From NCBI GenBank assembly GCA_034421335.1, contig DAOUKL010000073.1, positions 13,524 through 77,523 of the forward strand: a DNA stretch of 64,000 nt, written 5' to 3'. Of this stretch, positions 32,079-57,159 are shown one piece after another (the stretch's first letter is position 1; each line of letters opens with the position of its first letter). The notes beneath the pieces were generated by a model. That model saw only the letters and a program-made list of their open reading frames with translations, was not told the origin of the DNA and searched no databases. The position numbers and the translations under genes are program-made. The DNA is from Dehalococcoidia bacterium (GTDB taxonomy: Bacteria; Chloroflexota; Dehalococcoidia; Lucifugimonadales; Australimonadaceae).

Positions 32079-33242
32079 ATGGCGACTGACACCGACCGCG
32101 ACATCATCAGGGCTCAAGAACCGACGGGAGAACTCGAGGAGCTTCGGATCGCCGACGCCTACCTGGGGTGGATCGAGCGGGAAGGCGTGCGCCACATCGT
32201 GGACTACGCTTTCGACGACCTCAGCGCTGTCGAGCTGGGCCCCTGGGAGCGCAAGGGCGGCTTCGGGGCGATCATCAACATCCCCAACGACACCATCCCC
32301 AACGACGCCAAGATCGTCGAGATCAAGCCCGGAGGCGCCTCGGAGCCGGAGCACCATATGTACGAGGAGATGGTGTACGTGCTCTCCGGCCGCGGCGCCA
32401 CCACGCTGTGGGTGGACGAGAACCGGAAGAAGACCTTCGAGTGGCATGCCGGCAGCTTGTTCGCCATCCCGCTGAACGCCTGGTATCAGAACTTCAACGC
32501 CAGCGGCGCCGAGCCCGTCCGGTACATCTCGGTCACCAACGCCCCGCCCGTCATGCGGCTGTTCAAGGATGAGGACTTCATCTTCAACAACCCCTTCATG
32601 TTCTCCTCCCGCTACACCGGCGAGGACGGCTACTTCAGCGGCGCCGGCAAGCTGTTCCAGAAGCGGGTCTGGCAGTCCAACTTCATCCCGAACGCGCCCA
32701 CCATGCCCTTGTACGACTGGAGCGCGCGCGGCGCCGGCGGCATCAACGCCATGCTGGAGATGGCCGGGAACAGCATGAAGGCCCACATCTCCGAGTTCCC
32801 GGTCGGCACGTACAAGAAGGCCCACCGCCACGGCCCGGGAGCGCACCTGCTGTTGCTCAGCGGCGACGCCGGCTACTCGTTGCTCTGGCAGAAAGAGGAC
32901 ATGTCGGACCTGCGCAAGGCCGACTGGAAGCTCGGGGCGATGGTCGTCGTTCCCGGAGAGGGAACGCATCACCAGCACTTCAACTCCGGCTCGAAGCGGG
33001 CGCGGTACCTCGCTCTGCGGGCAGGGAACCACGGGCTGGCCGCTCCCTTCGTCGGCTCAGTGGGCGGCGGCGAAGTCAGCATGAAGGAGGGCGGGAGACA
33101 GATCGAATACGAAGACGAGTCGCTCCGCATTCACGAGCTCTTTGAGGCCGAACTCGCCAAGAACGGGGCGACGTGCCGCATGAAAGCCTTCGTGCCGTGG
33201 TGCAACGGCGAAGTCGGCCCCACGTCCTCCCGAGACACATAG
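32079..33242 (+). CDS. Bicupin dioxygenase-like protein (gentisate 1,2-dioxygenase-type architecture)
   Basis: ATG at 32079 with a GGAGGA Shine-Dalgarno. There are two cupin barrels; the second carries G-x5-HRH-x4-H (GTYKKAHRHGPGAH). The upstream part of track ORF 31203.. is antisense to the propeller gene. Confidence 0.8.
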   Translation: MATDTDRDIIRAQEPTGELEELRIADAYLGWIEREGVRHIVDYAFDDLSAVELGPWERKGGFGAIINIPNDTIPNDAKIVEIKPGGASEPEHHMYEEMVYVLSGRGATTLWVDENRKKTFEWHAGSLFAIPLNAWYQNFNASGAEPVRYISVTNAPPVMRLFKDEDFIFNNPFMFSSRYTGEDGYFSGAGKLFQKRVWQSNFIPNAPTMPLYDWSARGAGGINAMLEMAGNSMKAHISEFPVGTYKKAHRHGPGAHLLLLSGDAGYSLLWQKEDMSDLRKADWKLGAMVVVPGEGTHHQHFNSGSKRARYLALRAGNHGLAAPFVGSVGGGEVSMKEGGRQIEYEDESLRIHELFEAELAKNGATCRMKAFVPWCNGEVGPTSSRDT

Positions 33243-33317: not shown

Positions 33318-33371
33318 CGACGTACATCAGGAATTCAGCGCCGAAAACGCAACGATAGGAGGGAGGCGGCT

Positions 33372-37351: not shown

Positions 37352-37372
37352 TCCTCTCCTCCTCTCGTGTCA

Positions 37373-38607: not shown

Positions 38608-38682
38608 AGCCGACCTCCTCCAGCCAGTCCGGTTGGCCATAGTCTACACGAATAGCGCAACCGCCAACCATGAAGAGCGCCC

Positions 38683-39438: not shown

Positions 39439-39441
39439 GGC

Positions 39442-40833
39442 TCACTCAAGCGGCGGGCGCCGCTCGTGCCAGTCCGTGCGCCGCTGGTAGACGTCGCCCA
39501 CGGCGAACAGCGTGTTCTCGGCGAACGGACGCCCCGCGACCTGCAGGCTCAGCGGCAGTCCGGCGGCGGTGAAGCCTATCGGCAGCGCCATCGCCGGAAC
39601 GCCCGACAGGTTGAACGGGCTGCGGTGCGAGCGCAACCCGAAGAACTGGCTCATCACCGCCTGCTTCGACGTCAGGCCCGTCTCGGTGGCGATAGGAGGC
39701 GCCCCAGCCGCCTGCGCCGGCGTAACTATCACGTCGTACCGGGCGAGCTGCCCCATCACATCGCGCCGCATCAGCGTGCGGAACCGCGCCAGTTTCGCGT
39801 ACGCCGTCGCGGGGATGAGGCTCGCCGCCATCAGCCGGCGCCGTGTCGCGAAGTCGTAGTCCTTCGGACGCTCGCGCAGCCACTTCCGGTGCGTGTGCGC
39901 CGCCTCGACGTCCGACAGCGTGTTGGCGATGAGGCCGCCCTTCTCGAAGAGCGGCAGGCTGGCGTCGCCTACCTCCGCGCCGGAGTCCGCCAGCACGCGC
40001 ATCGCGGCGTCCACCGCCGAGGCCGCCTCGTCGCTCGCCATGCCGTTGCCGATGCTCTCGCGCACGACGCCGACCCGCAGCCCGCGCAGGTCGTCGCGCG
40101 GGACGAACGGCGCGACGGGGCGCGACGAGGTGTACGGGTCCTTCGGGTCATGGCCGGCGATGGCCTCGTACACCATCGCCGCGTCGGCGACCGTCTTGGT
40201 CATGGGGCCTATCGTGTCCATGAACCACGCCATGGGGAACGCGCCGTAGCGGCTCACCGCGCCCCACGTGGGACGCAGCCCCACGATGCCGCACCACCCC
40301 GCAGGGCCGCGGATCGACCCCGCCGTGTCGCCCCCCAGCGACGCCGCGCAGAGCGACGCCGCCACCGCCACGCCAGAGCCGCTGCTCGACTGCCCCGCCT
40401 GGCGCGACTCGTCCCACGGGTTGTGGGGAACGCCGAAGGGGTGCTGAACGTTGCCGCCGAGCGCATACTCGCTGAGGTTGAGCTTGCCGAGCAGCACGGC
40501 GCCCGCTGCGCGCAGCCGGGCGACAGCGGTGGAGTCCTCCCCGGCGACGTAGTCGACGATGTTGCCGCCGAGCGTCGTCCGCATCCCCCTGGCGTCGAAC
40601 TGGTCTTTCACCGCGACCGGCAGCCCATGGAGCGGTCCTCGCGCCGGTTCCTCCTCTGCGCTGCGCGCCGCCTCCAGCGCGCCCTCCTCGTCGAGCGTGA
40701 TGTAGGCGTTCAACCGCTCGAACCGCCTGGCGCGGTCGATGAACGCCTTTGTCAGCTCCACCGGCGACGTGGCGCGGGCGGCGAGCAGGGCGCTGAGCTC
40801 GGTTGCGGACTTGAGCGTCAGGTCACCGGCCAC
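39442..40833 (-). CDS. Amidase-signature family amidase (GatA/AtzE-like)
   Basis: Amidase signature GQSSSGSGVAVAASLCAASLGGDTAGSIRGPA; 463 aa. Confidence 0.9.
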   Translation of the reverse strand: MAGDLTLKSATELSALLAARATSPVELTKAFIDRARRFERLNAYITLDEEGALEAARSAEEEPARGPLHGLPVAVKDQFDARGMRTTLGGNIVDYVAGEDSTAVARLRAAGAVLLGKLNLSEYALGGNVQHPFGVPHNPWDESRQAGQSSSGSGVAVAASLCAASLGGDTAGSIRGPAGWCGIVGLRPTWGAVSRYGAFPMAWFMDTIGPMTKTVADAAMVYEAIAGHDPKDPYTSSRPVAPFVPRDDLRGLRVGVVRESIGNGMASDEAASAVDAAMRVLADSGAEVGDASLPLFEKGGLIANTLSDVEAAHTHRKWLRERPKDYDFATRRRLMAASLIPATAYAKLARFRTLMRRDVMGQLARYDVIVTPAQAAGAPPIATETGLTSKQAVMSQFFGLRSHRSPFNLSGVPAMALPIGFTAAGLPLSLQVAGRPFAENTLFAVGDVYQRRTDWHERRPPLE

Positions 40834-41041
40834 CGCCGCCCCCTTCCTCCGGCGCCTCGGCGGTCAGCCAGAACACCGGCAGCGGCTCCACGGCGTCAGC
40901 GTCGGAGTCTTCGAGCGCGGCGACGGCCTCGTTGATGGCGTTTACCCGGTGCGTGATCTCGTCGAGGTCGACGTCGTCGAGCGGCTCCATATCGAGCGCC
41001 CGCAGCAGCGAGCGCACCTCGTCGGTGGTCATATCGGGCAT
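40823..41041 (-). CDS. Small GatC/AtzG-like protein, putative amidase partner
   Basis: About 72 aa: MPDMTTDEVRSLLRALDMEPLDDVDLDEITHRVNAINEAVAALEDSDADAVEPLPVF resembles GatC-type helical peptides. It overlaps the amidase start by 11 nt. AAGGAGG Shine-Dalgarno upstream. Confidence 0.5.
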   Translation of the reverse strand: MPDMTTDEVRSLLRALDMEPLDDVDLDEITHRVNAINEAVAALEDSDADAVEPLPVFWLTAEAPEEGGGGGR

Positions 41042-42208: not shown

Positions 42209-42315
42209 TTGCAGGCCTCGTCATCCTTGTGCCATAATACTGACATACCCCCAACACAACGCCACTACCGCGCGCGGATGAGCCGCCGGAGCCACCAGAG
42301 GCCCGGCGGCTCTTT

Positions 42316-42358
42316 CTATTCCCCCTCCCCCCGAGGGGGAGGGCCGGGGAGAGGGCAG
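42316..42358. repeat. Hairpin repeat module directly upstream of the terminase-like gene
   Basis: ccccctccccccgagggggagggccggggagagggcag. The same unit recurs at about 44005-44040. Confidence 0.8.
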
Positions 42359-42372
42359 AAAGGAGGACCGCC

Positions 42373-43896
42373 ATCGAACTCGAACGCTACCGCAACGACC
42401 CCCTCGGCTTCGTCCGCGATGTCCTCCACGAAGCAGGCGCCCCCTACCCCAAGCAGGAGGAGATGCTCATGGCCCTCGCCGCCGACAAGCGCAGAGTCTC
42501 CGTCGTCGGTTGCAACTCCTCCGGCAAGGACTGGGCCGCCGCACGCGCCATCATCTGGTGGATCGAGACACGACCCCAGGCCAAGGTCATCGTCTCCGGC
42601 CCCACCCTCCGGCAGGTGAAGGAGATCGTCTGGGACGAGCTCCGAGCAGCCCACGCAGCCTGCGGTCACCGCCTCGCCGGCGTCGTCCGCGCGGGCGAGT
42701 ACCGCGCTGGACCCGACCGCGTCGCGCTCTGCCTCACCTCCAACAACCAGCACAACCTGCAGGGCTTCCACTCCCCCGAGTTGCTCGTCGTCATCACCGA
42801 GGCGCAGGGCGTCAAGCAGGCGTACTTCGAGGCCCTCAAGCGCCTCAACCCCAAGAAGATGCTGCTGCTCGGCAACCCCCTCGCGCTCACCGGCGAGTTC
42901 TACGACTCCCATCACGGCAAGAGTCCGCTCTATGAGCGCGTCGAAATCTCCGCCTACGATTCCCCCAACGTTCAGCAGGGGCGCCTCGACGCCCTTCCCG
43001 GCCTCGTCACTCCCGAGGACGTCGACGAACGCCGCCGCGAGTGGGGCGAGGACTCCCCCCTCTACATCGCGTCCATCCTCGGACAGTTTCCGCCATCCCT
43101 CGAAGACTCCCTCACCTCCCGCGTCCACGTCGACGCCGCCGTCCAGCACTGGCTGCGCGAAACCCCGCCCGAAGCGGCGGGGGGCCTCCGTCATTCCCGC
43201 GCATCCTCCCGTCATTCCCGCGAAAGCGGGAATCTCGCAGCCTTCGCGGACGGGGGCGAGGTTCCTGCTTCCGCAGGAACGACGGAACCCGGCCGCACGT
43301 CTCCCGTCATTCCCGCGCAGGCGGGAATCCACTCTCCCCCGCTGGGGGAGATGCCCGAAGGGCAGAGAGGGCCCTGGCGCATGGGCGTCGACGTCGCGCG
43401 CTACGGCGCCGACAAGTCGATTATCTGCCTGCGACGCGGCCACCGAGTCGAACGGCTCATCGCCTTCGAGAAGATGGACACCATGCGGCTCGCCGGCGAG
43501 GTCCGCGACATCGCCGAGGCCCTCGGTGTCCCGGCGGTGTTCGTCGACGAGACCGGCGTCGGCGGTGGGGTGGTCGACCGCCTGAAGGACTTGTGCGTCC
43601 CCGTCATCGGCGTCGAGGCAGGCGGCAGGGCCTACCGCCCCTCCCAGTTCGCCGACCTGCACGCCGAGACGTACTGGGAGGTCGCGCGGCGTCTGCGCGA
43701 GGGCGACATCTCCCTCCCGCCCGACGACGAGCTCGCGGGGCAGCTGCTCGCGCAGCGCTACGAGGTCTCCACCACGGGGCGCATCCACCTCGACAGCAAG
43801 GCCAAACTGCGGAGGAAGGGCGTCGCTTCCCCCGACCGCGCCGACGCCCTCGCCCTCGCCTTCATGGAGCCCCCCTCCATGCAGATATGGTTCTAG
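42373..43896 (+). CDS. Phage terminase large subunit-like protein (ATPase + RNase H-like nuclease), orphan, with a repeat-derived insertion
   Basis: Walker A VVGCNSSGKD and Walker B-like LLVVITEAQG. Nuclease half MGVDVARYGADKS...VFVDETGVGGGVVD...SPDRADALALAF. The track ORF starts at ATG 42463, but the conserved N-terminus (IELERYRNDPLGFVRDVL..PKQEEML) continues upstream in frame to an ATC at 42373, 6 nt after AAGGAGG. Confidence 0.7.
   Translation: MELERYRNDPLGFVRDVLHEAGAPYPKQEEMLMALAADKRRVSVVGCNSSGKDWAAARAIIWWIETRPQAKVIVSGPTLRQVKEIVWDELRAAHAACGHRLAGVVRAGEYRAGPDRVALCLTSNNQHNLQGFHSPELLVVITEAQGVKQAYFEALKRLNPKKMLLLGNPLALTGEFYDSHHGKSPLYERVEISAYDSPNVQQGRLDALPGLVTPEDVDERRREWGEDSPLYIASILGQFPPSLEDSLTSRVHVDAAVQHWLRETPPEAAGGLRHSRASSRHSRESGNLAAFADGGEVPASAGTTEPGRTSPVIPAQAGIHSPPLGEMPEGQRGPWRMGVDVARYGADKSIICLRRGHRVERLIAFEKMDTMRLAGEVRDIAEALGVPAVFVDETGVGGGVVDRLKDLCVPVIGVEAGGRAYRPSQFADLHAETYWEVARRLREGDISLPPDDELAGQLLAQRYEVSTTGRIHLDSKAKLRRKGVASPDRADALALAFMEPPSMQIWF
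43160..43375. repeat. Hairpin repeat modules (A,A,inverted A,A,B) lying inside the terminase-like ORF
   Basis: ccgtcattcccgcgc, ccgtcattcccgcgaaagcgggaatctcgc, ggttcctgcttccgcaggaacgacgg, ccgtcattcccgcgcaggcgggaatccac, tctcccccgctgggggagatgcccgaagggcagagagggcc. Confidence 0.9.
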
Positions 43897-45531: not shown

Positions 45532-46560
45532 GTGCTGCGCCTCCACGGGCAGGAGCTGGCCGTCCGCGCCCTCGAACGCTCGCTCGCGGGGGGGCGTCTG
45601 CGCCACGCCTACCTGTTCGCTGGCCCCGCCCACCTTGGAAAGACGACGCTCGCGCTGCAACTGGCGCAGGCGCTGAACTGTACGGACCCCGCGCCGCCGT
45701 GCGGCGCCTGCGGCCCCTGCGCGCGCGTCGCCTCCGGCGTCCACGCTGACGTGCAGCAGATCAGCGTCGACCCCGAGGCGGCGGAGGGGCCGCGCACCGT
45801 CATCGGCATCGAGTCCGTCCGCGACCTCATCGGCTCGGCGCACCTGCGCCCCTACGAGGGCCGCACCCGCGTGTTCGTCATCCACGGCGCCGACCGAATG
45901 AGCCAGGACGCCGCCAACGCGCTGCTCAAGGTGCTGGAGGAGCCGCCGCCCGACGTGGCGATACTGCTGGTGAGCGACAACCCGGGCGCCATTCTTCCGA
46001 CCGTGCGCTCGCGCTGCCAGACGCTCGATTTCTCGCCGCTGCCCGTCGACGAGGTCGCGCGGATCCTGCGCGACGAGGAGGGCGCGCCCGCCGAACACGC
46101 GGAAGTGCTGGCCCGGCTCTCCCGAGGGTGCGTCGGCTGGGCCATCGGCGCGGCGCGCGACGACACGCAGTTCGCCGCCGTGCACCAGCGCCTCGAACGC
46201 ATCGCCGACGCCGCCGAGGGCGGCCTCGAGGCGCGGTTCGGCTACGCCGACGACCTAGCGCGCCGCTTTCAGCGCGACCGCGCCGCCGGACGGGAGGAAC
46301 TGCAACTGTGGCTGCGGTGGGTGCGCGACCTGCTGCTCGTGCAGCACGGACAGACCGACCGCATCGTGAACCTCTCGTGGCGCGAGACGCTCGAACGGCA
46401 GGCGGCGGCGCTCACTCCGGCCCAGGTAGTGCGATGGGCGCACGAGATCATGCAGACCATCGAGCGCCTGGAGCGCAACGCGAACCCTCGCCTGGCCCTC
46501 GAAGCGCTGATGCTCGAAACGCCGCGCGCCAAATTGACAAGCGCGGCGGGCGAGCGATAG
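45532..46560 (+). CDS. holB: DNA polymerase III delta' subunit
   Basis: RLRHAYLFAGPAHLGKTTLALQLAQALNC..PCGACGPC; VFVIHGADRMSQDAANALLKVLEEPP. Confidence 0.85.
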   Translation: MLRLHGQELAVRALERSLAGGRLRHAYLFAGPAHLGKTTLALQLAQALNCTDPAPPCGACGPCARVASGVHADVQQISVDPEAAEGPRTVIGIESVRDLIGSAHLRPYEGRTRVFVIHGADRMSQDAANALLKVLEEPPPDVAILLVSDNPGAILPTVRSRCQTLDFSPLPVDEVARILRDEEGAPAEHAEVLARLSRGCVGWAIGAARDDTQFAAVHQRLERIADAAEGGLEARFGYADDLARRFQRDRAAGREELQLWLRWVRDLLLVQHGQTDRIVNLSWRETLERQAAALTPAQVVRWAHEIMQTIERLERNANPRLALEALMLETPRAKLTSAAGER

Positions 46561-46563
46561 AAC
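46534..46563 (+). promoter_or_regulatory. Sigma70-like promoter for Rieske paralogue 4 (inside the holB 3' end)
   Basis: TTGACA (46534-46539), 18 nt, then TAGAAC (46558-46563). The alternative reading is a 17-nt spacer with ATAGAA. Confidence 0.35.
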
Positions 46564-46597
46564 GCTCCTATACGACTACGACGACAGGAGTCCCGCT

Positions 46598-47869
46598 GTG
46601 CTCTCAGTACACGACAACGAACGGCTCACCCGCGTCGGGCCGGGCACGCCCATGGGCGAGGTGATGCGGCGCTACTGGCAGCCCGTTTTCATCTCGCACG
46701 AACTGCCGCATCCCGACTGCGACCCTCTCCGCGTCCGCATCCTCGGCGAGGACCTCGTCGCCTTCCGCGACTCGTCGAACCGCGTCGGGCTCGTCAGCGA
46801 GTGGTGCCCCCACCGGCTCACGTCGCTCTTCCTCGGGCGCAACGAGGAAAACGGCATCCGGTGCGTGTATCACGGGTGGAAGTTCGACGTAACCGGCGCG
46901 TGCGTGGACATGCCGAACGAGCCGGCGCAGTACGACTTCAGCCGCAAGGTGCGCCTGACCGCCTACCCCACGGTCGAACTCGGCGGCGTGGTCTGGGCGT
47001 ACATGGGGCCGAAGGAGCACACGCCGCCGGAGCCGAGCTTCGAGTTCGTGCGGCAGCCCCAGACTCACCGCCACGCCTCGAAGGTCATCGAGGAGTGCAA
47101 CTGGCTGCAGGCGCTCGAAGGCGGCATCGACTCCGTGCACTCGTCGTTCCTGCACCGCAAGTTCGGCAAGGGAGGAGCGGCAGGCCTCGACGGCCTCCGC
47201 GCCGAGGGCGTCGCCTCGAAGCTCGAGGTGGAGCCGACCGACTACGGCTACCGGTACGGCTCGATACGGGCGCTGCCGGGCAAAGACGCCAACTATGTGC
47301 GGACCTACCACTTCGTGATGCCGCACGTGCAGATACGCGCGGCGCAGCTCAACAACGACGGCTCGTGGTTCAAGTTCAAGATCGCCGGGCACCACTGGGT
47401 GCCCATGGACGACCACCGGACGATGGTGTGGAACTGGTTCTACACGCTCGACGAGCCGCTCTCGCAGGCCGAGCGCGACGAGCTGCTCAACGGGAACGGC
47501 CCGGACGCCGTCGATCAGACGACGTTCCGGAGCATCGGCAACCCGCGCAACAACTGGCTGATCGACCGGGAACTGCAACGGACGGACACCTTCACGGGCA
47601 TCAAGGGCATCAACGCGCAGGACAGGGCGGTGCAGGAGGCGATGGGGCCGATCGTCGACCGGAGCCAGGAGCACCTGGGGCAGACGGACCGCGCGGTCAT
47701 CACCGCGCGCAAGATGCTGCTGCAGGCGGTGCGCGCGGTGGAGGACGGCGGGGCTCCGCTGGGGGCGAACGACGCGTACTACCACATTCGGGCCATCGAG
47801 GAAGTGCTGCCCAGCAGCGTCCGCTGGCAGGACGCGCTGATGGACCGGATGCACGTCGGCGCCGCATAG
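46598..47869 (+). CDS. Rieske non-heme iron oxygenase alpha subunit, phthalate-dioxygenase family (paralogue 4)
   Basis: CPHRLTSLFLG...CVYHGWKF; CNWLQALEGGIDSVHSSFLH; GTG start; N-terminus LSVHDNERLTRVGPGTPMGEVMRRYWQP. Confidence 0.9.
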   Translation: MLSVHDNERLTRVGPGTPMGEVMRRYWQPVFISHELPHPDCDPLRVRILGEDLVAFRDSSNRVGLVSEWCPHRLTSLFLGRNEENGIRCVYHGWKFDVTGACVDMPNEPAQYDFSRKVRLTAYPTVELGGVVWAYMGPKEHTPPEPSFEFVRQPQTHRHASKVIEECNWLQALEGGIDSVHSSFLHRKFGKGGAAGLDGLRAEGVASKLEVEPTDYGYRYGSIRALPGKDANYVRTYHFVMPHVQIRAAQLNNDGSWFKFKIAGHHWVPMDDHRTMVWNWFYTLDEPLSQAERDELLNGNGPDAVDQTTFRSIGNPRNNWLIDRELQRTDTFTGIKGINAQDRAVQEAMGPIVDRSQEHLGQTDRAVITARKMLLQAVRAVEDGGAPLGANDAYYHIRAIEEVLPSSVRWQDALMDRMHVGAA

Positions 47870-47880: not shown

Positions 47881-49122
47881 GTGCGCCCCAGACTGTTCTA
47901 CGGTTGGACTGTCGTCAGTGTGCTGGGCGTGTTCGGCGCCGTGGGCGTCGGGCTCGCCGGCGCCAACTTCGCGCTGTTCATCGGGCCGATGTCCGGGGAA
48001 CTGGGGTGGAGCGCGTCCACGTTCGGCTGGGCGGTGTTCGTCCGCCTGGCGATGATCCTCGCCGCCGGCCCGGTGATCGGGCGCATCCTCGACCTGCGCG
48101 GCCCGCGCCTGCCGGTGCTGGTCGCCACGCTCGTTGCAGGCGGCCTCACGCTCTGGCTGTCGCGCGTCGGGGCGGTGTGGGAGCTTATGCTCGCGTTCGC
48201 CGTGATGGGTCTCGTGGGCATGGGCCGTGCGAACGACCTGCAGGCGAGCGCTCCGGCGGCGCAGTGGTTCGTGCGCAGGCGCGGGCTGGCGATGGGCATC
48301 GCGCTGGCGGGCACGCCGCTCGGCGTGGCGGTCTACTACCCGCTCACGCAACTGTTCATCGACGTGTACGGCTGGCGCGACGCGCTCTCCATCCTCGCGG
48401 TCTCCGGGACGCTCGTGGTCGTTCCGCTGGCGTTCCTGCTGCGTCGCCGCCCGGAGGACATGGGCCTCGCGCCGGACGGCGGCGCTCCGTCTACGACGGC
48501 GCGGGCAGGCGCGCGGGGCGGAGCATGGGTAGACGAGCGATCGCTCACGCGCGGGCAGGCGCTGCGGACGGGCAGGTTCTGGCTCATGCTCGCAGGGTTC
48601 ACCGCGCTCACCTACGGGCTCTCGACGCTCACCATCTTCCGAGTGCCGCACTTCATCGAGCGGGGCCTGAGCCCGTCGCTCGTGGCGGCGGCGATCGCGG
48701 TCGACGCGGTGGTCGCCATCGTTGCGAGCATTGCGCTGGGGAGAGCGCTCGACCGCCTGCCATCGCGGGGCGTGCTGGCGGCGGGGCTGGCCGCCGCGGC
48801 GTTCTGCGCCGTCGGCCTGATCGTGGTGGACGGCGTCTTCTGGCTGTTCGCGGCGAATATCGGGTACGCGCTGGGGTTCCAGATAACGCACGTTGCGCAG
48901 GGCGTGATGTGGGCCGACCAGTTCGGCAGGGCGCACCAGGGCGACATTCGAGGGCTGACTATCCCAGTAACCGTGGGCGTGGGGGCGCTGGCGTTCCCTG
49001 TCACCGGCTACCTGCGCGACGAGGCGGGCGTCTACACGCCCGCCTGGGTCGTTTCGATAGCGCTGCTGGTCGTCGCCGGGGCGCTGCTAGCCGCCGTGCG
49101 GCCTGCAGTTACTCGGCGTTGA
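47881..49122 (+). CDS. MFS transporter (oxalate/formate-antiporter-like architecture)
   Basis: GTG at 47881. N-terminus RPRLFYGWTVVSVLGVFGAVGVGLA, about 12 TM. The upstream part of track ORF 46801.. is an alternative frame of the Rieske gene. Confidence 0.8.
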   Translation: MRPRLFYGWTVVSVLGVFGAVGVGLAGANFALFIGPMSGELGWSASTFGWAVFVRLAMILAAGPVIGRILDLRGPRLPVLVATLVAGGLTLWLSRVGAVWELMLAFAVMGLVGMGRANDLQASAPAAQWFVRRRGLAMGIALAGTPLGVAVYYPLTQLFIDVYGWRDALSILAVSGTLVVVPLAFLLRRRPEDMGLAPDGGAPSTTARAGARGGAWVDERSLTRGQALRTGRFWLMLAGFTALTYGLSTLTIFRVPHFIERGLSPSLVAAAIAVDAVVAIVASIALGRALDRLPSRGVLAAGLAAAAFCAVGLIVVDGVFWLFAANIGYALGFQITHVAQGVMWADQFGRAHQGDIRGLTIPVTVGVGALAFPVTGYLRDEAGVYTPAWVVSIALLVVAGALLAAVRPAVTRR

Positions 49123-49846
49123 GCTCGGCTTCCCAGTCGACAGCCTCGCGTCCGATGGACTCGAGCACGGCGTTGACGAACAGTTCGTCGGGCACGGCGC
49201 CGACGAACTCGGACTGGTCGTTGATGATGGTCTTGGGGACGCCCATCACCTGGTAGCGCCGGGACATTTCGGGGAACTCCGACGCCTCGATGACCTCCGC
49301 CTTGACGCGAGGGTTGGCGACGGCGAATGCGTGGGCCGCACGGGCCACACGAGGGCAGTGGGGTCAGGTGGGGGTTACGAACACGCGCAGATGGACGTCC
49401 TGGTCGATGCGATCGCGCACGGCGGCGGCGACGCCATCGCGCAGGAGCGGTTCGGAGTTGGAGAGGGACTCGATGCCGGCGAGGATGGTGGGGAACTCGT
49501 TGCCGACGGGAGCGCCATAGAACCGCACCCGGCCGTCGCTGCCGTCGAGCACAACGGCGGGGATCTGCTCGATCTGGAGCCGGCGGGCCTCCTCAGCGCC
49601 ATCGCCGTGAACGTCGAGCACTTCAAGCGAGAGCTTGGGGGAGGTTTCGACGAGCTCGGTCAGCAGTTCGCGGGTGAGCTTGGCGAACTCACCTGCGCCG
49701 CCGGGGGCGGGTTCGGGGCGTCCGGGGATGGTGAGCATGCTGCGGACGTCGGACTCAGTGAAGAGGAGCATGCGGACGTCGTCGTTGAGAGTCTCGGCGA
49801 AGCGGTCTTCTATCGCCTTGCGGTCTTCTTCTCGCAGGTGGGGCAT
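49109..49846 (-). CDS. Two-domain glutaredoxin/thioredoxin-like protein disulfide oxidoreductase; candidate selenoprotein (in-frame TGA at 49366-49364)
   Basis: Track ORFs 49364..50050 and 49109..49348 are in the same frame, separated by TGA plus 5 codons. The joined sequence reads ...HLRVFVTPT-[TGA]-PHCPRVARAAHAFAVANPRVKAEVIEASEFPEMSRRYQVMGVPKTIIN, so the TGA occupies the first Cys of the CPxC redox motif. Start set at ATG 49846 (GAGGAG Shine-Dalgarno). Confidence 0.55.
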
Positions 49847-49932
49847 GGGATGTACTCCTCGATGTGCGCCGCGCGCGGCGGGTGGACGGTTGATTCGTTG
49901 GACAGGGGGATTGTACACGTCGCAGGCAAGAG

Positions 49933-50188: not shown

Positions 50189-50791
50189 CTATTCGTCGGG
50201 GGTGCGAGTGGCGCGCCAGACGCTCCATCCGCGCTGGAGGACGGTCAGCGCGCCGAACACGGCGATGACGCCAAGCCCCCAGGACGGGTAGCCCACCAGC
50301 AGGGCGACGCCGAGCACGACGACGCGCTCGGGCCTCCCCATCAGGCCCACGTCGCCGGGTATCGACAGTCCTTCGGCGCGGGCGCGGAGGTAGCTGACCA
50401 TCATCGAGGCGGCGAGCGCGGCGAACGCGAGGTAGACGCCAAGCGGGTCGTCGCCGCGCACGGAATAGACCGCCAGCCCGAACAGCACGACAGCTTCGCC
50501 GAGGCGGTCCATCACCGAGTCAAAGAACGCCCCGAACGTGGACGCCTTGCCGGAGAGGCGGGCGACAGCGCCGTCGAGCATATCCATCGCGGCGCCCGCG
50601 AGCATGACGAGGCCGCCGATGAGCAGCCGTCCGTCGGCTATGAGCCAGGCGGCGCCGGCTGCGACGCAGAACCCAGCGAGCGTGATCGCGTTCGGGGAGA
50701 CGCGAAGGGCGATGAGAAGGCGAGCGAGCGGATTGCTGATGAAGCGCGTGAGGACGCCGCGAGCGCGCAGGCGAGGGGCGAGAGAGTTCAT
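50189..50791 (-). CDS. CDP-alcohol phosphatidyltransferase (phosphatidylinositol-phosphate synthase-like)
   Basis: Exact family motif D-G-x2-A-R-x8-G-x3-D-x3-D: [23 protein letters not shown]. 200 aa, multi-TM. Confidence 0.85.
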
Positions 50792-51870
50792 GGGCGGCCT
50801 TTCACGCTGGTCCGTCGCCAGAGGGTGGCGTAGTAGTAGGCGAGCACGCGGTCGGCCACGGCGCTCCAGCGGTACTGCTCAACAGTGACGCGCCCACGGG
50901 CGCCCATTTCGCGCCGGAGTTCGGGGCTTGCGATGAGCCGCTCGAGGGCGGCAGCGAGCTCCGCGTCACGCCTGGGCCTTACGAGGAGCCCCTCGACGCC
51001 GTTGGACATCACCCGGCTGAAGCCGTCGATGCGGGAGGCGACTATCGGTTTGCCCGCGGCCATAGCCTCGAGGAGCACGATGCCGAAACTCTCGCGTCCG
51101 GTGTTCGGCGCGCAGAAGATATCCGCCAACTGGTAGTAGCGCGGCACGTCGTCGTGGGAGACGGGGCCGATGAACTCGACGTCCTGCAGGTTGCGCTCGC
51201 CGATGAGGGAGAGGACGTCCTCGCCGGGGTTGCCGGCGCCGACGATGATGAGGCGAGTTTCGGGCCGCTCCCACTTGAGGCGGCTGTAGGCCATGAGGAG
51301 GTACTTCAGTCCCTTGCGGCGCTCCATGCGGCCGAGGAAGAGGATGTTGGTCTTGCCGTCGCGGAAGCGCTCAATGGGGCAGGCTTCGGAGAAGCGCTCG
51401 ACGTCGACGCCGTTGGGGATGATCTCGTACTCGCCGGGGTAGAACTGGCTCACGAAGTCCAGGGCGGGCTTGGAGACGGCGATGCGCCCGTGGAGCCTGC
51501 GGAACCACTGCCGGCTCAGGTAGCTCCAAGCGCGGTAGTACCGGGTCCCCTTGTAGCTGTGGAAGGTGCCGATGTTGACCGCGTCTGAGGCGCGGAGGAA
51601 CGTGAGCGGCAGCACGGGGGACATCGGCTCATGGAGGTGGACGACGTCGAACCTCCCCTCTTCGAGGACGCGGCGGACGCGGGGCTGGAGCCAGAACGAG
51701 AACGTTATGCGGGCGACGGCGCCGCCGCTCGGCACAGGCACAGGGCGACCGAGCGGGATGAAGTCGGGCTCGAGCTGGCGCTCCCGCGAGTTGGCAAGCG
51801 GGGCGATGATCTTGGCGACGTGGCCCTTGAGGCGAAGCTGGCGCGCCAGGTTGGCGATGTGGTCGTTCAC
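50788..51870 (-). CDS. GT4-family glycosyltransferase (PimA-like); the true start is probably upstream, at ATC 51972
   Basis: [20 protein letters not shown] (E-x7-E). The track start is GTG 51870, but the conserved GT-B N-terminus [16 protein letters not shown] continues upstream in frame with no ATG, GTG or TTG. Confidence 0.85.
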
Positions 51871-51990
51871 GCCTCCCGGCGCGCCATAGTCGTACGGAGA
51901 GACGAGGGCGATTCTGAGCGTCCCGTTGGTGGAGTCGGTCGCCGTGGTTCGGGCTGCCGCTCGCTGCTCGATAGGAGCCTCCCCTGTCGT

Positions 51991-53103
51991 CTAGCCGACG
52001 CCGTCCACGGCATTGGGGGACGCAAGCGGCGCCGGCTGTTCGGCGATGAACGCCTCCACCATGTCCCGCGCCATGTCGTCGGAGTACTGGTTTGCGGGGG
52101 ACTTCATGAAGTAGGCGCTGGGGCCGTCGAGCTGTCCGCTGATGCCGCGGTCGAGGGCGATCTTCGCGCAGCGCACGGCGTCGACGACGACGCCCGCGGA
52201 GTTCGGGCTGTCCCACACCTCGAGTTTCATTTCGAGGTTGAGGGGCACGTCGCCGAAGGTCTGGCCTTCGATGCGGATGTGGCACCACTTGCGGTCTTCG
52301 AGCCAGGGCACGTAGTCGCTGGGGCCGACGTGCACGTTGTCGGGGCCGAGGTCGTAGGGCAACTGGGAGGTGACGGCGTTGGTCTTGGACTCTTTCTTGG
52401 ACTCGAGGCGCTCGCGCTCGAGCATGTTGAGGAAGTCGGTGTTGCCGCCGAAGTTCAGCTGGTAGGTGCGAAGGATCTTGACTCCACGGTCGTGGAAGAG
52501 GTTGGCAAGGACGCGGTGGGTGATGGTAGCGCCAACCTGGGACTTGATGTCGTCGCCGACGATAGGCACGCCGGCGTCCTGGAAGCGCTTCTGCCAGTAG
52601 GGCTCGCGCGCGATGAAGACGGGGATGCAGTTAACGACGCCTACGCGCGCCTGGAGCGCTTGTTCCACGTACCACTTGGTGGCCTCCTCGGAGCCGACGG
52701 GGAGGTAGTTTATGAGGACGTCGACCTCGCGGTCCTTGAGGATGTTGACGATGTCGGCGGTGGAACCGCTGGCCTTTTCGATGACGCCGGAGAGGTACTT
52801 TCCGAGGCCGTCGTGGGTCATGCCGCGCTCGACCTTCACGCCGGTCTTGGGGACGTCGGTGAACCGGACGGTGTTGTTCTGCCCGGCGAAGATCGCTTCG
52901 GACAGGTCCTTGCCCACCTTGTTCTTGTCGACGTCGAAGGCGGCGACGACCCTGATGTCGCCGATGTGGTAGCCGCCCATCTGAGCGTGCATGAGGCCCG
53001 GGACGAACTCGTCCGTGGGCGCTTCGCGATACCGGTGGAGTCCCTGCACAAAGGAGGATGCGCAGTTGCCGACTCCCACTATCGCGACGTTGATCCTGGA
53101 CAT
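51991..53103 (-). CDS. ino1: myo-Inositol-1-phosphate synthase
   Basis: [30 protein letters not shown], and the overall size of about 370 aa. Start set at ATG 53103; the track ORF starts at 53145. Confidence 0.9.
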
Positions 53104-53214
53104 AGGCGCTGCCTTTCTGGTTGGTGGACTGTGGCGCCCTTTCACGAGGGCTGAATCAGCAGTATAAGCGAATTAGGACGGGGGACGTTTGGCAAGCCCC
53201 AAGCCCCCTTCCTC

Positions 53215-54466: not shown

Positions 54467-54507
54467 CCCCCGCGTATGCGCCCCTGAATTGCAGGGGCGC
54501 GCGCAGG

Positions 54508-54546
54508 TTTCCTTCGTTCCGTGGTTCGACAGGTTCACCACGAACC
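54508..54546. repeat. Single module-D repeat (inverted)
   Basis: ccgtggttcgacaggttcaccacgaacc. Confidence 0.8.
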
Positions 54547-54586
54547 AATGGGGAATTTCCCGGGGCGGCGCCGGAGGCAACACGCC

Positions 54587-55831
54587 ATGTCGATAGCAGA
54601 GGACAACGAACTCCTGACTCGTGTGGGGCCGGGCACGCCAATGGGCGAACTGTTCCGGCGCTACTGGCTGCCGGCGCTGTTGTCGGAGGAGTTGCCGGAG
54701 CCCGACTGCGCGCCCGTTCGCGTGCGGCTGCTGGGCGAAGATCTGGTGGCGTTCCGCGACAGCAACGGCAGGGTGGGACTGCTGGGGGAGTACTGCTCGC
54801 ACCGCCGGGCGTCGCTGTTCTACGGGCGCGTCGAGGATTGCGGGCTCACGTGCATCTACCACGGCTGGAAGTACGACACGGACGGCAACGTGGTCGATAC
54901 GCCCGCTGAGCCCGCGACGAGCCGGTTGAAGGAACTGGTGCGGCACCCCTCGTATCCGTGCGAGGAGCGGAACGGGATGGTGCTGACGTACATGGGCCCG
55001 CGCGACAAGACGCCGCTCATTCCCAATCTTCCGTGGTTCACGATGCCGCGCGATCACGTGGTGGTGGGCAGCAAGCTTTTCCTGGAGTGCAACTGGCTGC
55101 AGGCGCTCGAGGGGGACAACGACAGCATCCACTCGGCCTACCTGCACCGCAAGGCGTCGGACGACAACAACCCGATGTCGCTGGCGCGCAGGCGACCGGC
55201 GCGGGTGAGCATCGACGAACTGCCGTGGGGCGTGCGCGCGGCGACGATATACCCGTTCGACGAGACTCACGAGATGTTCCGGACGAACACGTTCCTGATG
55301 CCGTGCATCGGCAATACGCCCAGGGGCGAGTCGCCCAACGGCTACAACGAGGCAGTCCACACGATCTACCAGGTCCCCGCCGACGACTACACGAACTGGC
55401 GCTACGACATGGAGACATGGTGGGACAAGACGGTTGACGACTCGTACGCGCAGGCCGACCGCGCGGAAGTGGGGCCTGACTTCATGAGCCTGTACACCCG
55501 CGCCAACAACTACCTCATCGACCGCGCCGCGCAGAAGTCGGGCGAGGCGTGGTGCGGGGTGGTGGCCCGCAACCATACGCAGGACAAGATGGTGACCGAG
55601 AGCATGGGCGCCATCAGCGACCGCAGCCAGGAGAACCTGGGCGCGAGCGACCGGCACATCATCGCCATGCGGCGCTTCATGCTCGACGCGGTGCGGGCGG
55701 TGGCGGAGGGCGCCGACCCTCCGGGCGTGGCATGGACGCCAGAGCAGAACCAGGCGCGCGACTACGCGTACATGCTCACGACAGTGCTGCCGAACGGGGC
55801 CGACTGGAAGGAACTGCTGCCGCGGCAGTAG
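54587..55831 (+). CDS. Rieske non-heme iron oxygenase alpha subunit, phthalate-dioxygenase family (paralogue 5)
   Basis: CSHRRASLFYG...CIYHGWKY; CNWLQALEGDNDSIHSAYLH. Start at MSIAEDNELLTRVGPGTPMGELFRRYWLP (ATG 54587). Confidence 0.9.
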   Translation: MSIAEDNELLTRVGPGTPMGELFRRYWLPALLSEELPEPDCAPVRVRLLGEDLVAFRDSNGRVGLLGEYCSHRRASLFYGRVEDCGLTCIYHGWKYDTDGNVVDTPAEPATSRLKELVRHPSYPCEERNGMVLTYMGPRDKTPLIPNLPWFTMPRDHVVVGSKLFLECNWLQALEGDNDSIHSAYLHRKASDDNNPMSLARRRPARVSIDELPWGVRAATIYPFDETHEMFRTNTFLMPCIGNTPRGESPNGYNEAVHTIYQVPADDYTNWRYDMETWWDKTVDDSYAQADRAEVGPDFMSLYTRANNYLIDRAAQKSGEAWCGVVARNHTQDKMVTESMGAISDRSQENLGASDRHIIAMRRFMLDAVRAVAEGADPPGVAWTPEQNQARDYAYMLTTVLPNGADWKELLPRQ

Positions 55832-55902
55832 GCGCGGCGCGCGCCGCTGAGTATGTTCCAGCAACGGCGCTGAGACGACGGGACAACGAAGGAGAGTAGA
55901 CC

Positions 55903-57159
55903 ATGACCAGTCTGGCACGCAGAGCGCTCGCGCTTGCAGCAGTCGCAGCGACGGCGGCGCTCGTCCTCGCAGCCTGCGGCGGCGACGATCCCACGCCGAC
56001 GCCGGCGGCTCCGGCGGCGACACCCACTCCGGCGCCCCCCACCGCGACACCCACCCCGGCGCCTCCCACCGCGACGCCCACCCCGTTGCCTCCGGGCGTG
56101 ACGCCTCCTCCACCGACGCCCACTCCCGTGCCGCCGACGCCGGTCCCGACGGCGACGCCCGTGCCGCAGCGGGACCTGGAGGACCACTTCGACGGCAAGA
56201 CGGTAAGCTTCGTCGTCGGCTTCTCGCCCGGCGGAGGTTACGACACTGTCGCCCGCATCTCGGCGGGCTTCATCGAGGAGTACCTCCCCGGCGACCCGAG
56301 GGTGGTGGTGAGGAACCTCGCCGGGGGCGGCAGCCAGCGCGCGCTGCAGTTCGTGATGCGCTCGGAGCCGAACGGCCTCACGGTGGGCCAGCTTCACCCC
56401 CGGTTCGCCACTCGCGAGTTGCTCGGCACGGACGTCCCGGACTTCGATCTGAGAACGGTTACGTTCGTCGCGGCGCCTAACGGCGGCACGTCGTCCAGCT
56501 ACGGCTGCATCCGAAAGGAACTGGCCGGTTCGTGGGAAGAGGCGCTGGACAGGGGCGTTGAATTCGTCGTGGCGAGCGCGGAGCCGGGCGGCACCGCGTC
56601 CGGGACGCAGTGGCTGGAGATAGTCGGCGCGCCGGTGAAGGTGGTGTTCGGGTACGGCGGCACGTCCGAGAACCTCGCCGCCTTCAACCGCGGGGAGACC
56701 AACCTGTTCGTGGAGTGCAACAGCTCGTCCGCCCGCACGATCTACCCGGAGTGGTTCGACGGCGAGACGCTGATACCGGTGTACTGGCAGAACCTCCCGA
56801 TTCCCGACGAGGATCTGGCCCAGCTGGCCGGGCCGCAGCCGAGCGAAATCGTCAGCCTGACCGGGATCAGCCCGACGCAGGAGCAGATCGACGTTCTGAA
56901 CCTGAAGAATTCGTCCAGCCTCAGCACGAACCGGATGATGGTGCTGGCGCCGGAGACTCCCGACGACATCACGAACGCGTGGGTCGAGGCAGCCCGCAGC
57001 ATGTTCAACGACCCCGAGTTCGTGCGGTTGTCGGAGATCGCCAACTACGAAGTGGTGCCGGTCTACGGGGCTGACGTCCTGGACGACTACCGGGTGGTCG
57101 AGACGCTCTCTCCGGCGGGCGTGGAGATGTTCAAGTCGCTGGTGGGCGCGGTCGACTAG
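55903..57159 (+). CDS. Tripartite tricarboxylate transporter substrate-binding lipoprotein (TctC/Bug family)
   Basis: Lipobox LVLAAC|GGD, a long Pro/Thr/Ala linker, then FVVGFSPGGGYDTVARI...NLAGGGSQRA, typical of the Bug/TctC family. Confidence 0.85.
   Translation: MTSLARRALALAAVAATAALVLAACGGDDPTPTPAAPAATPTPAPPTATPTPAPPTATPTPLPPGVTPPPPTPTPVPPTPVPTATPVPQRDLEDHFDGKTVSFVVGFSPGGGYDTVARISAGFIEEYLPGDPRVVVRNLAGGGSQRALQFVMRSEPNGLTVGQLHPRFATRELLGTDVPDFDLRTVTFVAAPNGGTSSSYGCIRKELAGSWEEALDRGVEFVVASAEPGGTASGTQWLEIVGAPVKVVFGYGGTSENLAAFNRGETNLFVECNSSSARTIYPEWFDGETLIPVYWQNLPIPDEDLAQLAGPQPSEIVSLTGISPTQEQIDVLNLKNSSSLSTNRMMVLAPETPDDITNAWVEAARSMFNDPEFVRLSEIANYEVVPVYGADVLDDYRVVETLSPAGVEMFKSLVGAVD

What the first reader, a model, noticed from the sequence alone, without database searches (positions are those of the whole stretch)
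49109..49846. In-frame TGA at the first Cys of a CxxC redox motif: candidate selenocysteine (UPHC) in a thioredoxin-fold oxidoreductase
Two adjacent ORFs in the same frame are separated only by a TGA. Joined, they encode a two-domain glutaredoxin-like protein disulfide oxidoreductase whose active-site region reads VFVTPT-TGA-PHCPRVARAAHAFA. Homologues of this fold have C-P-x-C at exactly this place.

Sec replacing the N-terminal redox Cys is the classic pattern of bacterial thioredoxin-fold selenoproteins.

Fifteen nt downstream of the UGA the mRNA can form GUGGCC-CGUGC-GGC(C)CAC. This is 6 bp with one bulge and a GU-containing loop, at a distance compatible with a bacterial SECIS element. TGA is otherwise used as a normal stop in this window.
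Basis: partly seen in the sequence, partly recalled or inferred. Interest (0 to 1): 0.65.

Follow-up and report, generated by a model that had tools for sequence, protein, structure and literature searches.

The report
Selenocysteine disulfide oxidoreductase gene, mis-split
The in-frame TGA is very probably a real selenocysteine codon in a two-domain thioredoxin-fold disulfide oxidoreductase, but this selenoprotein family has been predicted since the mid-2000s, so the gene is a new member and not a new kind of thing.

Summary
A minus-strand gene (49846..49109) has one in-frame TGA (49366..49364) in the motif VFVTPT-U-PHC.

The selenocysteine reading is strongly supported:
- The joined 245-aa protein scores above the curated cut-off of NCBIfam TIGR02187, 'PDO_seleno_TRX'.
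- 117 of the 120 nearest protein clusters end at exactly ...VFVTPT.
- In 80 species-representative genomes the codon is TGA in 43 and TGC/TGT in 37, never TAA or TAG.
- The frame stays open after the TGA and is under purifying selection as strong as upstream.
- A compact hairpin 12 nt after UGA has 4 bp, a bulged U, 4 bp and a 5-nt loop with invariant G. Its five core pairs all form in 38 of 39 Sec-type sequences, with G-C to C-G swaps at synonymous sites, but in only 5 of 31 Cys-type homologues.
- The hairpin has the layout of the E. coli fdhF SECIS.

One gap remains. The window holds no selA, selB, selD or tRNA-Sec, and I could not locate them in the closest complete genomes. SelB does share a contig with the TGA form in six related Chloroflexota genomes (Thermomicrobiales and Chloroflexia).

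[quoted passage not shown] Interest is low to moderate.

The parts
49109..49846 (-). Complete selenoprotein gene: 244 sense codons plus UGA(Sec) at codon 161, ending in TAA. It encodes a two-unit thioredoxin-fold protein disulfide oxidoreductase (AhpF N-terminal-domain homologue).
   Evidence: Translation. TIGR02187.2 PDO_seleno_TRX scores 210.1 bits against a cut-off of 185, over residues 6-229. Pfam Thioredoxin_3 matches residues 152-228. The nearest solved structure is P. furiosus PDO, 1a8l, E = 4.8e-37.
49364..49366 (-). UGA read as selenocysteine (U161), the first residue of the U-P-H-C redox motif.
   Evidence: The codon aligns with the first Cys of CPHC/CPYC in full-length homologues. 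It is TGA in 43 of 80 genomes and TGC/TGT in 37, never TAA or TAG. 117 of the 120 nearest clusters end at VFVTPT.
49355..49357 (-). UGC, Cys164: the resolving Cys of the UPHC motif and the only Cys in the protein.
   Evidence: Translation. Alignment columns T10 and G11 are invariant in all 39 Sec-type sequences.
49330..49351 (-). SECIS-type hairpin covering nt 16-37 counted from the U of UGA. It is CGUG, a bulged U (49347), GGCC, the loop CGUGC (49342..49338), then GGCC and CACG. The same bases encode R-V-A-R-A-A-H plus the first base of the next Ala codon, at the start of the active-site helix.
   Evidence: Folds at -12.1 kcal/mol. In 39 Sec-type sequences 88.5% of cells pair, and 0 of 500 shuffles reach this. 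In Cys-type sequences 63.3% pair, equal to the shuffle mean. Pair 21-33 is GC 25, CG 10, GU 2, AU 1. Pair 24-30 is CG in 39 of 39 Sec-type but pairs in only 12 of 31 Cys-type sequences. Loop position 2 is G in 39 of 39.
49855..49860 (-). Likely Shine-Dalgarno sequence GAGGAG, 8 nt upstream of the ATG (inferred).
   Evidence: Read from the sequence. The 15 nt before the GTG at 49348 (CCCCACUGCCCUCGU) contain no comparable purine-rich motif, which argues against a separate downstream gene.

Best explanation
This is one gene for a selenocysteine-containing protein disulfide oxidoreductase of the 'AhpF N-terminal-domain homologue' family (PDO, TIGR02187).

Inferred mechanism of decoding: the ribosome reaches UGA at codon 161. 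SelB-GTP carrying Sec-tRNA(Sec) is held by a small hairpin that begins 12 nt downstream, and it delivers selenocysteine instead of a release factor terminating. The hairpin has 4 bp, a bulged U, 4 bp and a 5-nt loop containing G-U.

Inferred function from homology: Sec161 and Cys164 lie in the second thioredoxin-fold unit, at the position of the CPYC site of P. furiosus PDO, and would cycle between selenol/thiol and selenenylsulfide. The enzyme would reduce or isomerise protein disulfides, or pass electrons to a peroxiredoxin-type partner. It would presumably be recharged by a thioredoxin-reductase-like flavoprotein encoded elsewhere.

What is shown and what is inferred:
- Shown: the conserved TGA, Cys/Sec alternation, an open and selected downstream frame, a hairpin specific to Sec forms, and family membership.
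- Inferred: actual Sec insertion, the redox partners, and the presence of selA, selB, selC and selD in this genome.
For: 1. Family: TIGR02187.2 'PDO_seleno_TRX' scores 210.1 bits against a cut-off of 185. PDB PDOs match at E = 5e-37 to 2e-27, with VFVTPTCPYCP aligned to the motif.

2. Conserved stop: 117 of the 120 nearest clusters, at 58-98% identity, end at ...VFVTPT. TGA is seen in 43 of 80 species-representative genomes and Cys codons in 37, with no TAA or TAG.

3. Not a read error: three independent assemblies carry TGA together with nearby synonymous differences.

4. The downstream part is translated:
- pN/pS is 0.12-0.22 after the TGA and 0.21-0.28 before it, against the closest relatives, at pS of about 0.4-0.5.
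- The 15 nt between the TGA and the called GTG start show codon periodicity. P, H/Y, C and P are invariant while third positions vary.

5. SECIS:
- The five core pairs all form in 38 of 39 Sec-type sequences and in 5 of 31 Cys-type sequences. Fisher p = 4e-13, not corrected for phylogeny.
- There is a compensatory G-C to C-G change at two synonymous third positions.
- The Arg/Ser codon in the loop is only CGU, AGG or AGU in Sec forms, but mostly CGG or CGC in Cys forms.
- The layout parallels E. coli fdhF: an 11-nt spacer, 3 bp, bulged U, 3 bp, loop GGUC.

6. Machinery in relatives: true SelB lies on the same contig as the TGA form in L060, L067, L075, L076, L079 and L082.

7. Literature: the family is listed as a UxxC selenoprotein 'predicted with high confidence' (PMC13188914, PMC9312934; Table 1 of PMC1794560). 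Dehalococcoidia MAGs are among the most selenoprotein-rich bacteria (PMC13326102).
Against: - The window has no tRNA at all. A six-frame tblastn with E. coli SelA, SelB and SelD finds nothing in it, and Pfam scans of 40 ORFs find no sel genes.
- I could not place SelB on the chromosomes of the closest relatives (OZ241740.1, OZ252088.1, OZ220477.1, OZ244741.1). No contig-length match appeared.
- The hairpin in this single sequence is not significantly more stable than shuffles.
- No Rfam family matches. A scan at gathering scores may not be informative for so short a hairpin.
- Selenium incorporation in this family has, as far as the reviews state, been predicted and not demonstrated.
Confidence: 0.92

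Rival explanations
1. It is a pseudogene or a sequencing or assembly error: a nonsense mutation in a Cys codon (TGC or TGT to TGA), leaving a dead gene.
For: A single-base change turns TGC or TGT into TGA. Gene callers treat it as a stop.
Against: - The same TGA is present in 43 of 80 species-level genomes and in 117 of the 120 nearest clusters, down to 58% identity.
- It is present in three independent assemblies.
- The downstream frame is intact and under purifying selection, with pN/pS 0.12-0.22.
- The stop is never TAA or TAG.
Confidence: 0.01
2. These are two real, separate genes: a 160-aa N-terminal-domain protein ending at TGA, and a 79-aa thioredoxin-like protein starting at the GTG at 49348.
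For: This is how public annotation calls it, as 160 aa plus a 79-aa Thioredoxin_3 protein.
Against: - The 79-aa product would lack the redox motif and the preceding strand of its fold.
- The 15-nt 'spacer' encodes an invariant P-[HY]-C-P with variable third positions, so it is translated in this frame.
- No Shine-Dalgarno sequence precedes the GTG.
- Cys-type homologues are single ORFs of 218-244 aa.
- The joined protein passes the full-length TIGR02187 cut-off.
Confidence: 0.02
3. The UGA is recoded, but to something other than selenocysteine. One route would be Cys inserted through a SelB-dependent tRNA-Cys(UCA)-type system. Another would be near-cognate read-through as Trp or Cys when selenium is scarce.
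For: Nothing here measures which residue is inserted. The conserved hairpin and the SelB linkage are compatible with it.
Against: - Cys could be encoded directly, and many relatives do exactly that. Keeping TGA plus a constrained hairpin across a large clade therefore makes most sense if the product differs from Cys.
- The family is a recognised Sec family (PMC13188914).
- TGA is an ordinary stop elsewhere in the window, so there is no global reassignment.
Confidence: 0.04

Closest known systems
[quoted passage not shown] The example given in the reviews is ABB15282.1, and Carboxydothermus hydrogenoformans is listed with a member.
   Same: Same HMM family, scoring above the curated cut-off. 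Same UxxC motif with a single Sec (PMC13188914, PMC9312934). Same two-unit thioredoxin-fold architecture of about 210-245 aa.
   Different: This member comes from a high-GC (68%) Chloroflexota/Dehalococcoidia-type genome. The 2006 survey lists Carboxydothermus hydrogenoformans and Symbiobacterium thermophilum with members of this family (PMC1794560). The motif here is UPHC. In this clade the Sec form is the rule (117 of the 120 nearest clusters) and not a rare variant.
Pyrococcus furiosus protein disulfide oxidoreductase (PDB 1a8l), with relatives 1j08, 2ayt and 2ywm
   Same: Best solved homologues, E = 4.8e-37 to 2.4e-27. The query motif VTPT-[C]-PHCP aligns to VTPTCPYCP of the C-terminal active site.
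   Different: They use Cys, not Sec. From my own knowledge, the archaeal enzyme also has a second CXXC in the N-terminal unit. The window protein has no Cys at all in its N-terminal unit, so it has a single redox centre, as in the AhpF N-terminal domain.
AhpF (alkyl hydroperoxide reductase subunit F), N-terminal domain (PDB 1zyn, 1hyu, 4o5q)
   Same: Homologous double thioredoxin fold with one CxxC in the second unit (E = 3e-10 to 4e-12; TIGR03140 partial hit).
   Different: The window protein ends at 245 aa and has no FAD/NADH thioredoxin-reductase-like C-terminal part. Its score is far below the AhpF cut-off (64.5 against 502.9). It is not AhpF, although JGI names many of the truncated homologues that way.
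E. coli fdhF SECIS element (minimal SelB-binding hairpin)
   Same: It lies immediately downstream of the UGA inside the coding sequence. fdhF has an 11-nt spacer, 3 bp, a bulged U on the 5' strand, 3 bp and the loop GGUC. The window has a 12-nt spacer, 4 bp, a bulged U, 4 bp and the loop CGUGC. Other clades have the loop AGGUU, AGGAU or AGUCU, always with G at loop position 2.
   Different: The loop has 5 nt and the stems are one pair longer. The resemblance is architectural. Binding by the cognate SelB is not tested, and there is no Rfam model or hit.

Membership tests
TIGR02187 PDO_seleno_TRX (protein disulfide oxidoreductase / AhpF N-terminal-domain homologue) | Full-length HMM score above the curated cut-off | tested here: met
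   210.1 bits against a cut-off of 185, covering residues 6-229 of 245 and profile positions 2-208 of 209. Sec was replaced by Cys for the scan.
TIGR02187 PDO_seleno_TRX | Two tandem thioredoxin-fold units in a protein of about 210-245 aa | tested here: met
   The HMM covers both units. PDB PDO 1a8l aligns over query residues 56-230. Thioredoxin_3 matches residues 152-228, and there is a borderline DUF7088 match at 47-98. No structure was predicted.
TIGR02187 PDO_seleno_TRX | [C/U]-x-x-C redox motif in the C-terminal unit | tested here: met
   U161-P-H-C164 aligns with CPYC of 1a8l and with CPHC of P0005 and P0008.
Bacterial selenoprotein gene (Sec-UGA) | In-frame UGA aligned with Cys in homologues, with the reading frame conserved downstream | tested here: met
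   43 TGA against 37 TGC/TGT in 80 genomes. pN/pS downstream is 0.12-0.22.
Bacterial selenoprotein gene (Sec-UGA) | SECIS stem-loop shortly downstream of the UGA with a G-containing apical loop, conserved in Sec forms | tested here: met
   The hairpin spans nt 16-37. 88.5% of cells pair in Sec forms against 63.3% in Cys forms. There are compensatory changes at pair 21-33, and loop position 2 is G in 39 of 39.
Bacterial selenoprotein gene (Sec-UGA) | selA, selB, selD and tRNA-Sec present in the same genome | tested here: inconclusive
   They are not in the 64-kb window, and the rest of this genome is not available. In related Chloroflexota, SelB lies on the same contig as the TGA form. For the closest complete chromosomes, no SelB could be tied to the contig.
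Bacterial selenoprotein gene (Sec-UGA) | Selenium actually incorporated at the UGA | not testable with these tools
   This needs 75Se labelling or mass spectrometry. The reviews list the family as 'predicted with high confidence' (PMC13188914).
Archaeal PDO with two active sites (P. furiosus type) | A second CXXC in the N-terminal unit | tested here: not met
   There is no Cys anywhere in residues 1-160, and the close homologues also lack it.
AhpF | C-terminal FAD/NAD(P)H thioredoxin-reductase-like domain, in a protein of about 520 aa | tested here: not met
   The protein ends at 245 aa with TAA. TIGR03140 scores 64.5 bits against a cut-off of 502.9.

The most novel reading that the evidence does not exclude
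In a very large group of mostly uncultured, high-GC soil and marine Chloroflexota, the Sec form of this oxidoreductase may be the inherited default and not an oddity. It is almost universally mis-annotated as two genes.

Its SECIS lies inside the codons of the active-site helix (R-V-A-R-A-A-H). RNA structure and protein sequence therefore constrain each other, which would explain the frozen synonymous sites.

Recent Sec-to-Cys reversions that still carry the hairpin (L054) would make this a natural series for studying how Sec and Cys exchange.
Probability: 0.4. Interest if true: 0.35.

Novelty: new member of a known kind. Interest (0 to 1): 0.25.

Why it matters
There are three practical consequences.
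- Annotation: this gene and well over a hundred database clusters of its relatives are stored as a truncated 'hypothetical protein' or 'AhpF' plus a separate small thioredoxin. Selenoproteome and redox inventories of Chloroflexota are therefore undercounted.
- SECIS models: the locus gives a clean comparative example of a minimal bacterial SECIS overlapping an active-site helix, with matched Cys-type controls. That is useful for training SECIS and selenoprotein predictors.
- Selenium dependence: it adds to the evidence that these Chloroflexota, whose window gene content looks aerobic and heterotrophic, depend on selenium.

It does not reveal a new mechanism.

Tried and rejected
1. Rfam scan of the whole window at gathering scores gave no hit. 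This is uninformative here.

2. Single-sequence folding. The 67-nt fold is no better than shuffles. The minimum-energy long hairpin it proposes (nt 17-50) pairs in only 70% of cells across Sec forms, so I rejected it as the conserved element.

3. I prefer the bulged-U register (nt 16-24 with 30-37) because it is the RNAfold optimum and matches fdhF. Covariation cannot separate the two.

4. Search for Sec machinery near the gene. E. coli SelB tblastn hits in L013-L020 turned out to be IF-2. 'SelA' hits in L052, L056 and L059 are a DgaE-like relative of SelA scoring below all cut-offs. Neither was counted.

5. Attempt to tie SelB to the closest complete chromosomes by contig-length fingerprint:
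- Thermomicrobium SelB query.
- Representative search.
- Three cluster look-ups.
- A Chloroflexota SelB query.
Many Dehalococcoidia/Chloroflexota SelBs on 1-3.4 Mb contigs were found, but none on 2381319, 3168340, 2388059, 3699780, 1338848, 398707 or 2642258. A near match, 1527706 against 1527343, proved to be different records.

6. Other in-frame TGAs in the window. The one after the amidase (39442..39444) is an ordinary stop, because the amidase domain is complete. No second selenoprotein candidate turned up.

7. tRNA scan of 47 related loci found no tRNA-Sec.
Full report
**What is in the sequence**

The feature is a minus-strand gene. Its ATG is at 49846, a likely Shine-Dalgarno GAGGAG lies 8 nt upstream, and the TAA stop is at 49111..49109. 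Codon 161 is TGA (49366..49364), and the translation reads ...DVHLRVFVTPT*PHCPRVARAAHAFAVANP....

Mechanical ORF calling gives a 160-aa piece and a 79-aa piece starting at the GTG at 49348. Public gene callers make the same split in every assembly that I retrieved.

TGA ends about 11 of roughly 45 coding-like ORFs in the window, so the code is standard. A scan for in-frame TGAs with coding signal on both sides found only three. This is the only one in a redox motif.

**What the protein is**

With Cys in place of the stop, the 245-aa protein matches NCBIfam TIGR02187.2, named 'PDO_seleno_TRX'. The score is 210.1 bits against a curated cut-off of 185, over almost the full length. Pfam finds Thioredoxin_3 at residues 152-228.

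The nearest solved structures are the protein disulfide oxidoreductases of Pyrococcus furiosus (1a8l, E = 4.8e-37), P. horikoshii and Aquifex, followed by AhpF N-terminal domains. VFVTPT-C-PHCP aligns to VFVTPTCPYCP of the C-terminal active site.

The protein has no Cys other than C164. It therefore has a single U-P-H-C centre, like the AhpF N-terminal domain and unlike the two-site archaeal enzyme. It is not AhpF, because it lacks the flavoprotein half.

**Is the TGA a conserved, decoded codon?**

A search of 5.8 billion clustered proteins returned 665 hits. Of the best 120, at 58-98% identity, 117 are 155-175 aa long and end at exactly ...VFVTPT. One of these ends ...VFVTPN. The three full-length ones (P0005, P0008, P0103) read VFVTPTCPHCP or VFVTPTCPYCP.

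A scan of one genome per species returned 80 loci, which split as follows:
- 43 loci carry TGA. These are many Dehalococcoidia, Thermomicrobium, Sphaerobacter, Chloroflexia, Aquicultor and an actinomycete MAG.
- 37 loci carry TGC or TGT. These are archaea, Sysuimicrobiota, Limnochordales and some Dehalococcoidia, including a SAR202 MAG.
- No locus carries TAA or TAG.

The frame continues after every TGA. Three independent assemblies with the identical N-terminal protein carry TGA while differing at nearby synonymous sites, which excludes a read error.

Against the closest relatives, pN/pS is 0.12-0.22 downstream of the TGA and 0.21-0.28 upstream, at pS of about 0.4-0.5. Both halves are therefore translated and constrained alike.

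The 15 nt between the TGA and the called GTG start show codon periodicity. CC-, -A-, UG- and CC- are invariant while third positions vary. No ribosome-binding site precedes the GTG. Pseudogene, sequencing error and 'two genes' are therefore rejected.

**The SECIS element**

I aligned the first 54 nt from the UGA for 39 distinct Sec-type sequences (A2) and 31 Cys-type sequences (A3). No gaps were needed.

The hairpin pairs nt 16-19 with 34-37 and nt 21-24 with 30-33. U20 is bulged and nt 25-29 form the loop. The comparison gives:
- In Sec forms, 88.5% of cells pair, and 0 of 500 column shuffles reach this value or the covariation score.
- In Cys forms, 63.3% of cells pair, which equals the shuffle mean.
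- Pair 21-33 joins two synonymous third positions (Val/Ala codon 6 and Ala codon 10). It is GC 25, CG 10, GU 2, AU 1 in Sec forms, but pairs in only 17 of 31 Cys forms.
- Pair 24-30 is CG in 39 of 39 Sec forms and pairs in 12 of 31 Cys forms.
- The five core pairs all form in 38 of 39 Sec forms against 5 of 31 Cys forms. Fisher p = 4e-13, not corrected for shared ancestry.
- Loop position 2 is always G in Sec forms.
- The loop codon is only CGU, AGG or AGU in Sec forms, while Cys forms mostly use CGG or CGC.

Within the window's own clade the 21 nt CGU GUG GCC CGU GCG GCC CAC are identical in 14 of 16 sequences, although synonymous divergence elsewhere is about 0.5.

In the window the hairpin is 49351..49330, at -12.1 kcal/mol. 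Its layout matches the E. coli fdhF element, which I read from NC_000913.3. fdhF has an 11-nt spacer, 3 bp, a bulged U, 3 bp and the loop GGUC. The window has a 12-nt spacer, 4 bp, a bulged U, 4 bp and the loop CGUGC.

The longer single-sequence minimum-energy fold does not, at 70%. The window hairpin alone is not significantly stable, so the case rests on the contrast between Sec and Cys forms.

**Sec machinery**

The window holds no tRNA, and Rfam finds nothing. E. coli SelA, SelB and SelD find nothing in it by six-frame search, and 40 ORFs scanned with Pfam include no sel gene. A 64-kb window is only a small part of a genome, and the closest complete relatives are 2.4-3.7 Mb, so this is not evidence of absence.

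In relatives, a true SelB with the C-terminal winged-helix domains lies close to the TGA-type gene:
- It is 2-10 kb away in five Thermomicrobiales loci: L060, L067, L075, L079 and L082.
- It is about 16 kb away on a 668-kb Chloroflexia contig, L076, which is the same record as L094.

For the closest complete chromosomes, at about 80% protein identity, I tried to find SelB by contig-length fingerprint. I used all remaining homologue, representative and cluster look-ups. These returned many SelBs from soil Chloroflexota on 1-3.4 Mb contigs, one of them named Dehalococcoidia (P0497). None was on the target contigs. This point stays open.

The literature adds indirect support. BSepDB lists two Dehalococcoidia MAGs, with 46 and 49 selenoprotein genes, among the ten richest bacteria. 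One of them carries a UUID-style isolate name like those of the closest relatives here (PMC13326102).

**Comparison with what is known**

The family is catalogued in several places:
[quoted passage not shown] 2006, with two members at that time (PMC1794560).
- NCBI's own model name contains 'seleno'.

The window gene meets every sequence-level criterion of that family and of a bacterial Sec gene. The only untested criteria are the machinery in this genome and selenium incorporation itself.

**Mechanism and rivals**

The best explanation, at confidence about 0.92, is SelB- and SECIS-directed insertion of Sec at codon 161. This would yield a single-centre U-x-x-C thiol/selenol-disulfide oxidoreductase.

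The rivals are a pseudogene or error (0.01), two separate genes (0.02), and recoding to a residue other than Sec (0.04). The last cannot be excluded without mass spectrometry. It is unlikely, because relatives that want Cys simply encode it.

**Novelty and verdict**

Three side results are mildly interesting:
- The Sec form dominates in this Chloroflexota clade.
- Its relatives are systematically mis-split in public databases.
- The comparative picture of a minimal SECIS overlapping the active-site helix is very clean. It includes one Thermomicrobium MAG (L054) that has switched to TGC while keeping the hairpin intact.

Interest is 0.25.

Noticed in passing
L054:10451-10504 (Thermomicrobium sp. 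H14_148): This homologue has TGC (Cys) at the active site but keeps the complete Sec-type hairpin (GUC GCC AGG UUG GCG CAC). Its first 54 nt match the sister Sec-type sequence L065 at every base except the third base of that codon. It looks like a very recent Sec-to-Cys switch with a 'fossil' SECIS.
   Followed up: partly
window 50189-53172 (-); also L004:5500-8421 and L092:1-2795: Three genes lie directly upstream of the oxidoreductase gene on the same strand: an inositol-3-phosphate synthase, a GT4 glycosyltransferase and a phosphatidylinositol-phosphate-synthase-like CDP-alcohol transferase. The order is conserved down to 58% PDO identity. It looks like an inositol phospholipid or glycolipid cluster. 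All NCBIfam scores are below the equivalog cut-offs. Any functional link to the selenoprotein is unknown.
   Followed up: partly
L094:1-8677, L096:6988-12698, L067:11468-13718: In Thermomicrobiales and Chloroflexia loci, selB overlaps by a few bases a downstream PIG-L/LmbE-family deacetylase gene, which gives only a weak BshB1-like hit. In L094 and L096 a large Thioredox_DsbH-domain protein lies 1-4 kb upstream of selB, with one or more other genes in between; in L067 only the selB/deacetylase overlap was seen. The arrangement recurs in at least three genomes.
   Followed up: no
L056:14318-15523 (-); similar hits in L052 and L059: A 401-aa SelA-related PLP enzyme lies about 4 kb downstream of the TGA-type oxidoreductase gene in three Dehalococcoidales/Chloroflexota MAGs. 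It is DgaE-like, scores below all cut-offs and lacks the SelA N-terminal domain. It is not counted as Sec machinery.
   Followed up: partly
window 7848-9221, 10969-12405, 33315-34697, 46538-47866, 54488-55828: Five paralogous Rieske plus LigXa_C-type oxygenase genes lie within 64 kb. The window also holds a small Rieske ferredoxin (14611-15006), a LigB-type ring-cleavage dioxygenase (37612-38643) and a CoxSML-like molybdenum hydroxylase cluster (23378-27157). The gene content suggests an aerobic degrader of aromatic or recalcitrant carbon, typical of SAR202-like Chloroflexota.
   Followed up: no
window 58323-63998 (-), running off the window end: A giant ORF of more than 1890 aa is made of cadherin, fibronectin-III and bacterial Ig repeats. 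It is probably a surface adhesin.
   Followed up: no
window 38971-40863 (-): The amidase gene ends in TGA (39442..39444) and is followed in the same frame by a 156-codon coding-like ORF with no Pfam hit. I checked it as a second recoding candidate. The amidase domain is complete and there is no redox motif, so I treat the TGA as an ordinary stop.
   Followed up: yes
window 32204-32872 (-): Short ORFs here have unusual composition: GC3 of 0.95-0.99 but GC1 of only 0.42-0.49. One contains an in-frame TGA (32486..32488). They are probably shadow frames of a gene on the other strand. I did not examine them.
   Followed up: no
window 36320-37369 (-), 42244-43893 (+), 55900-57156 (+), 17661-18629 (+): Four coding-like ORFs of 320-550 aa have no Pfam hit, and the three also tested against NCBIfam (17661-18629 was not) have no hit there either.
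   Followed up: no
protein clusters P0001-P0120: Public sources name the truncated N-terminal fragments 'hypothetical protein' or 'alkyl hydroperoxide reductase subunit AhpF'. The C-terminal 79-88 aa is called as a separate Thioredoxin_3 gene. This is a systematic annotation error across well over a hundred clusters.
   Followed up: yes
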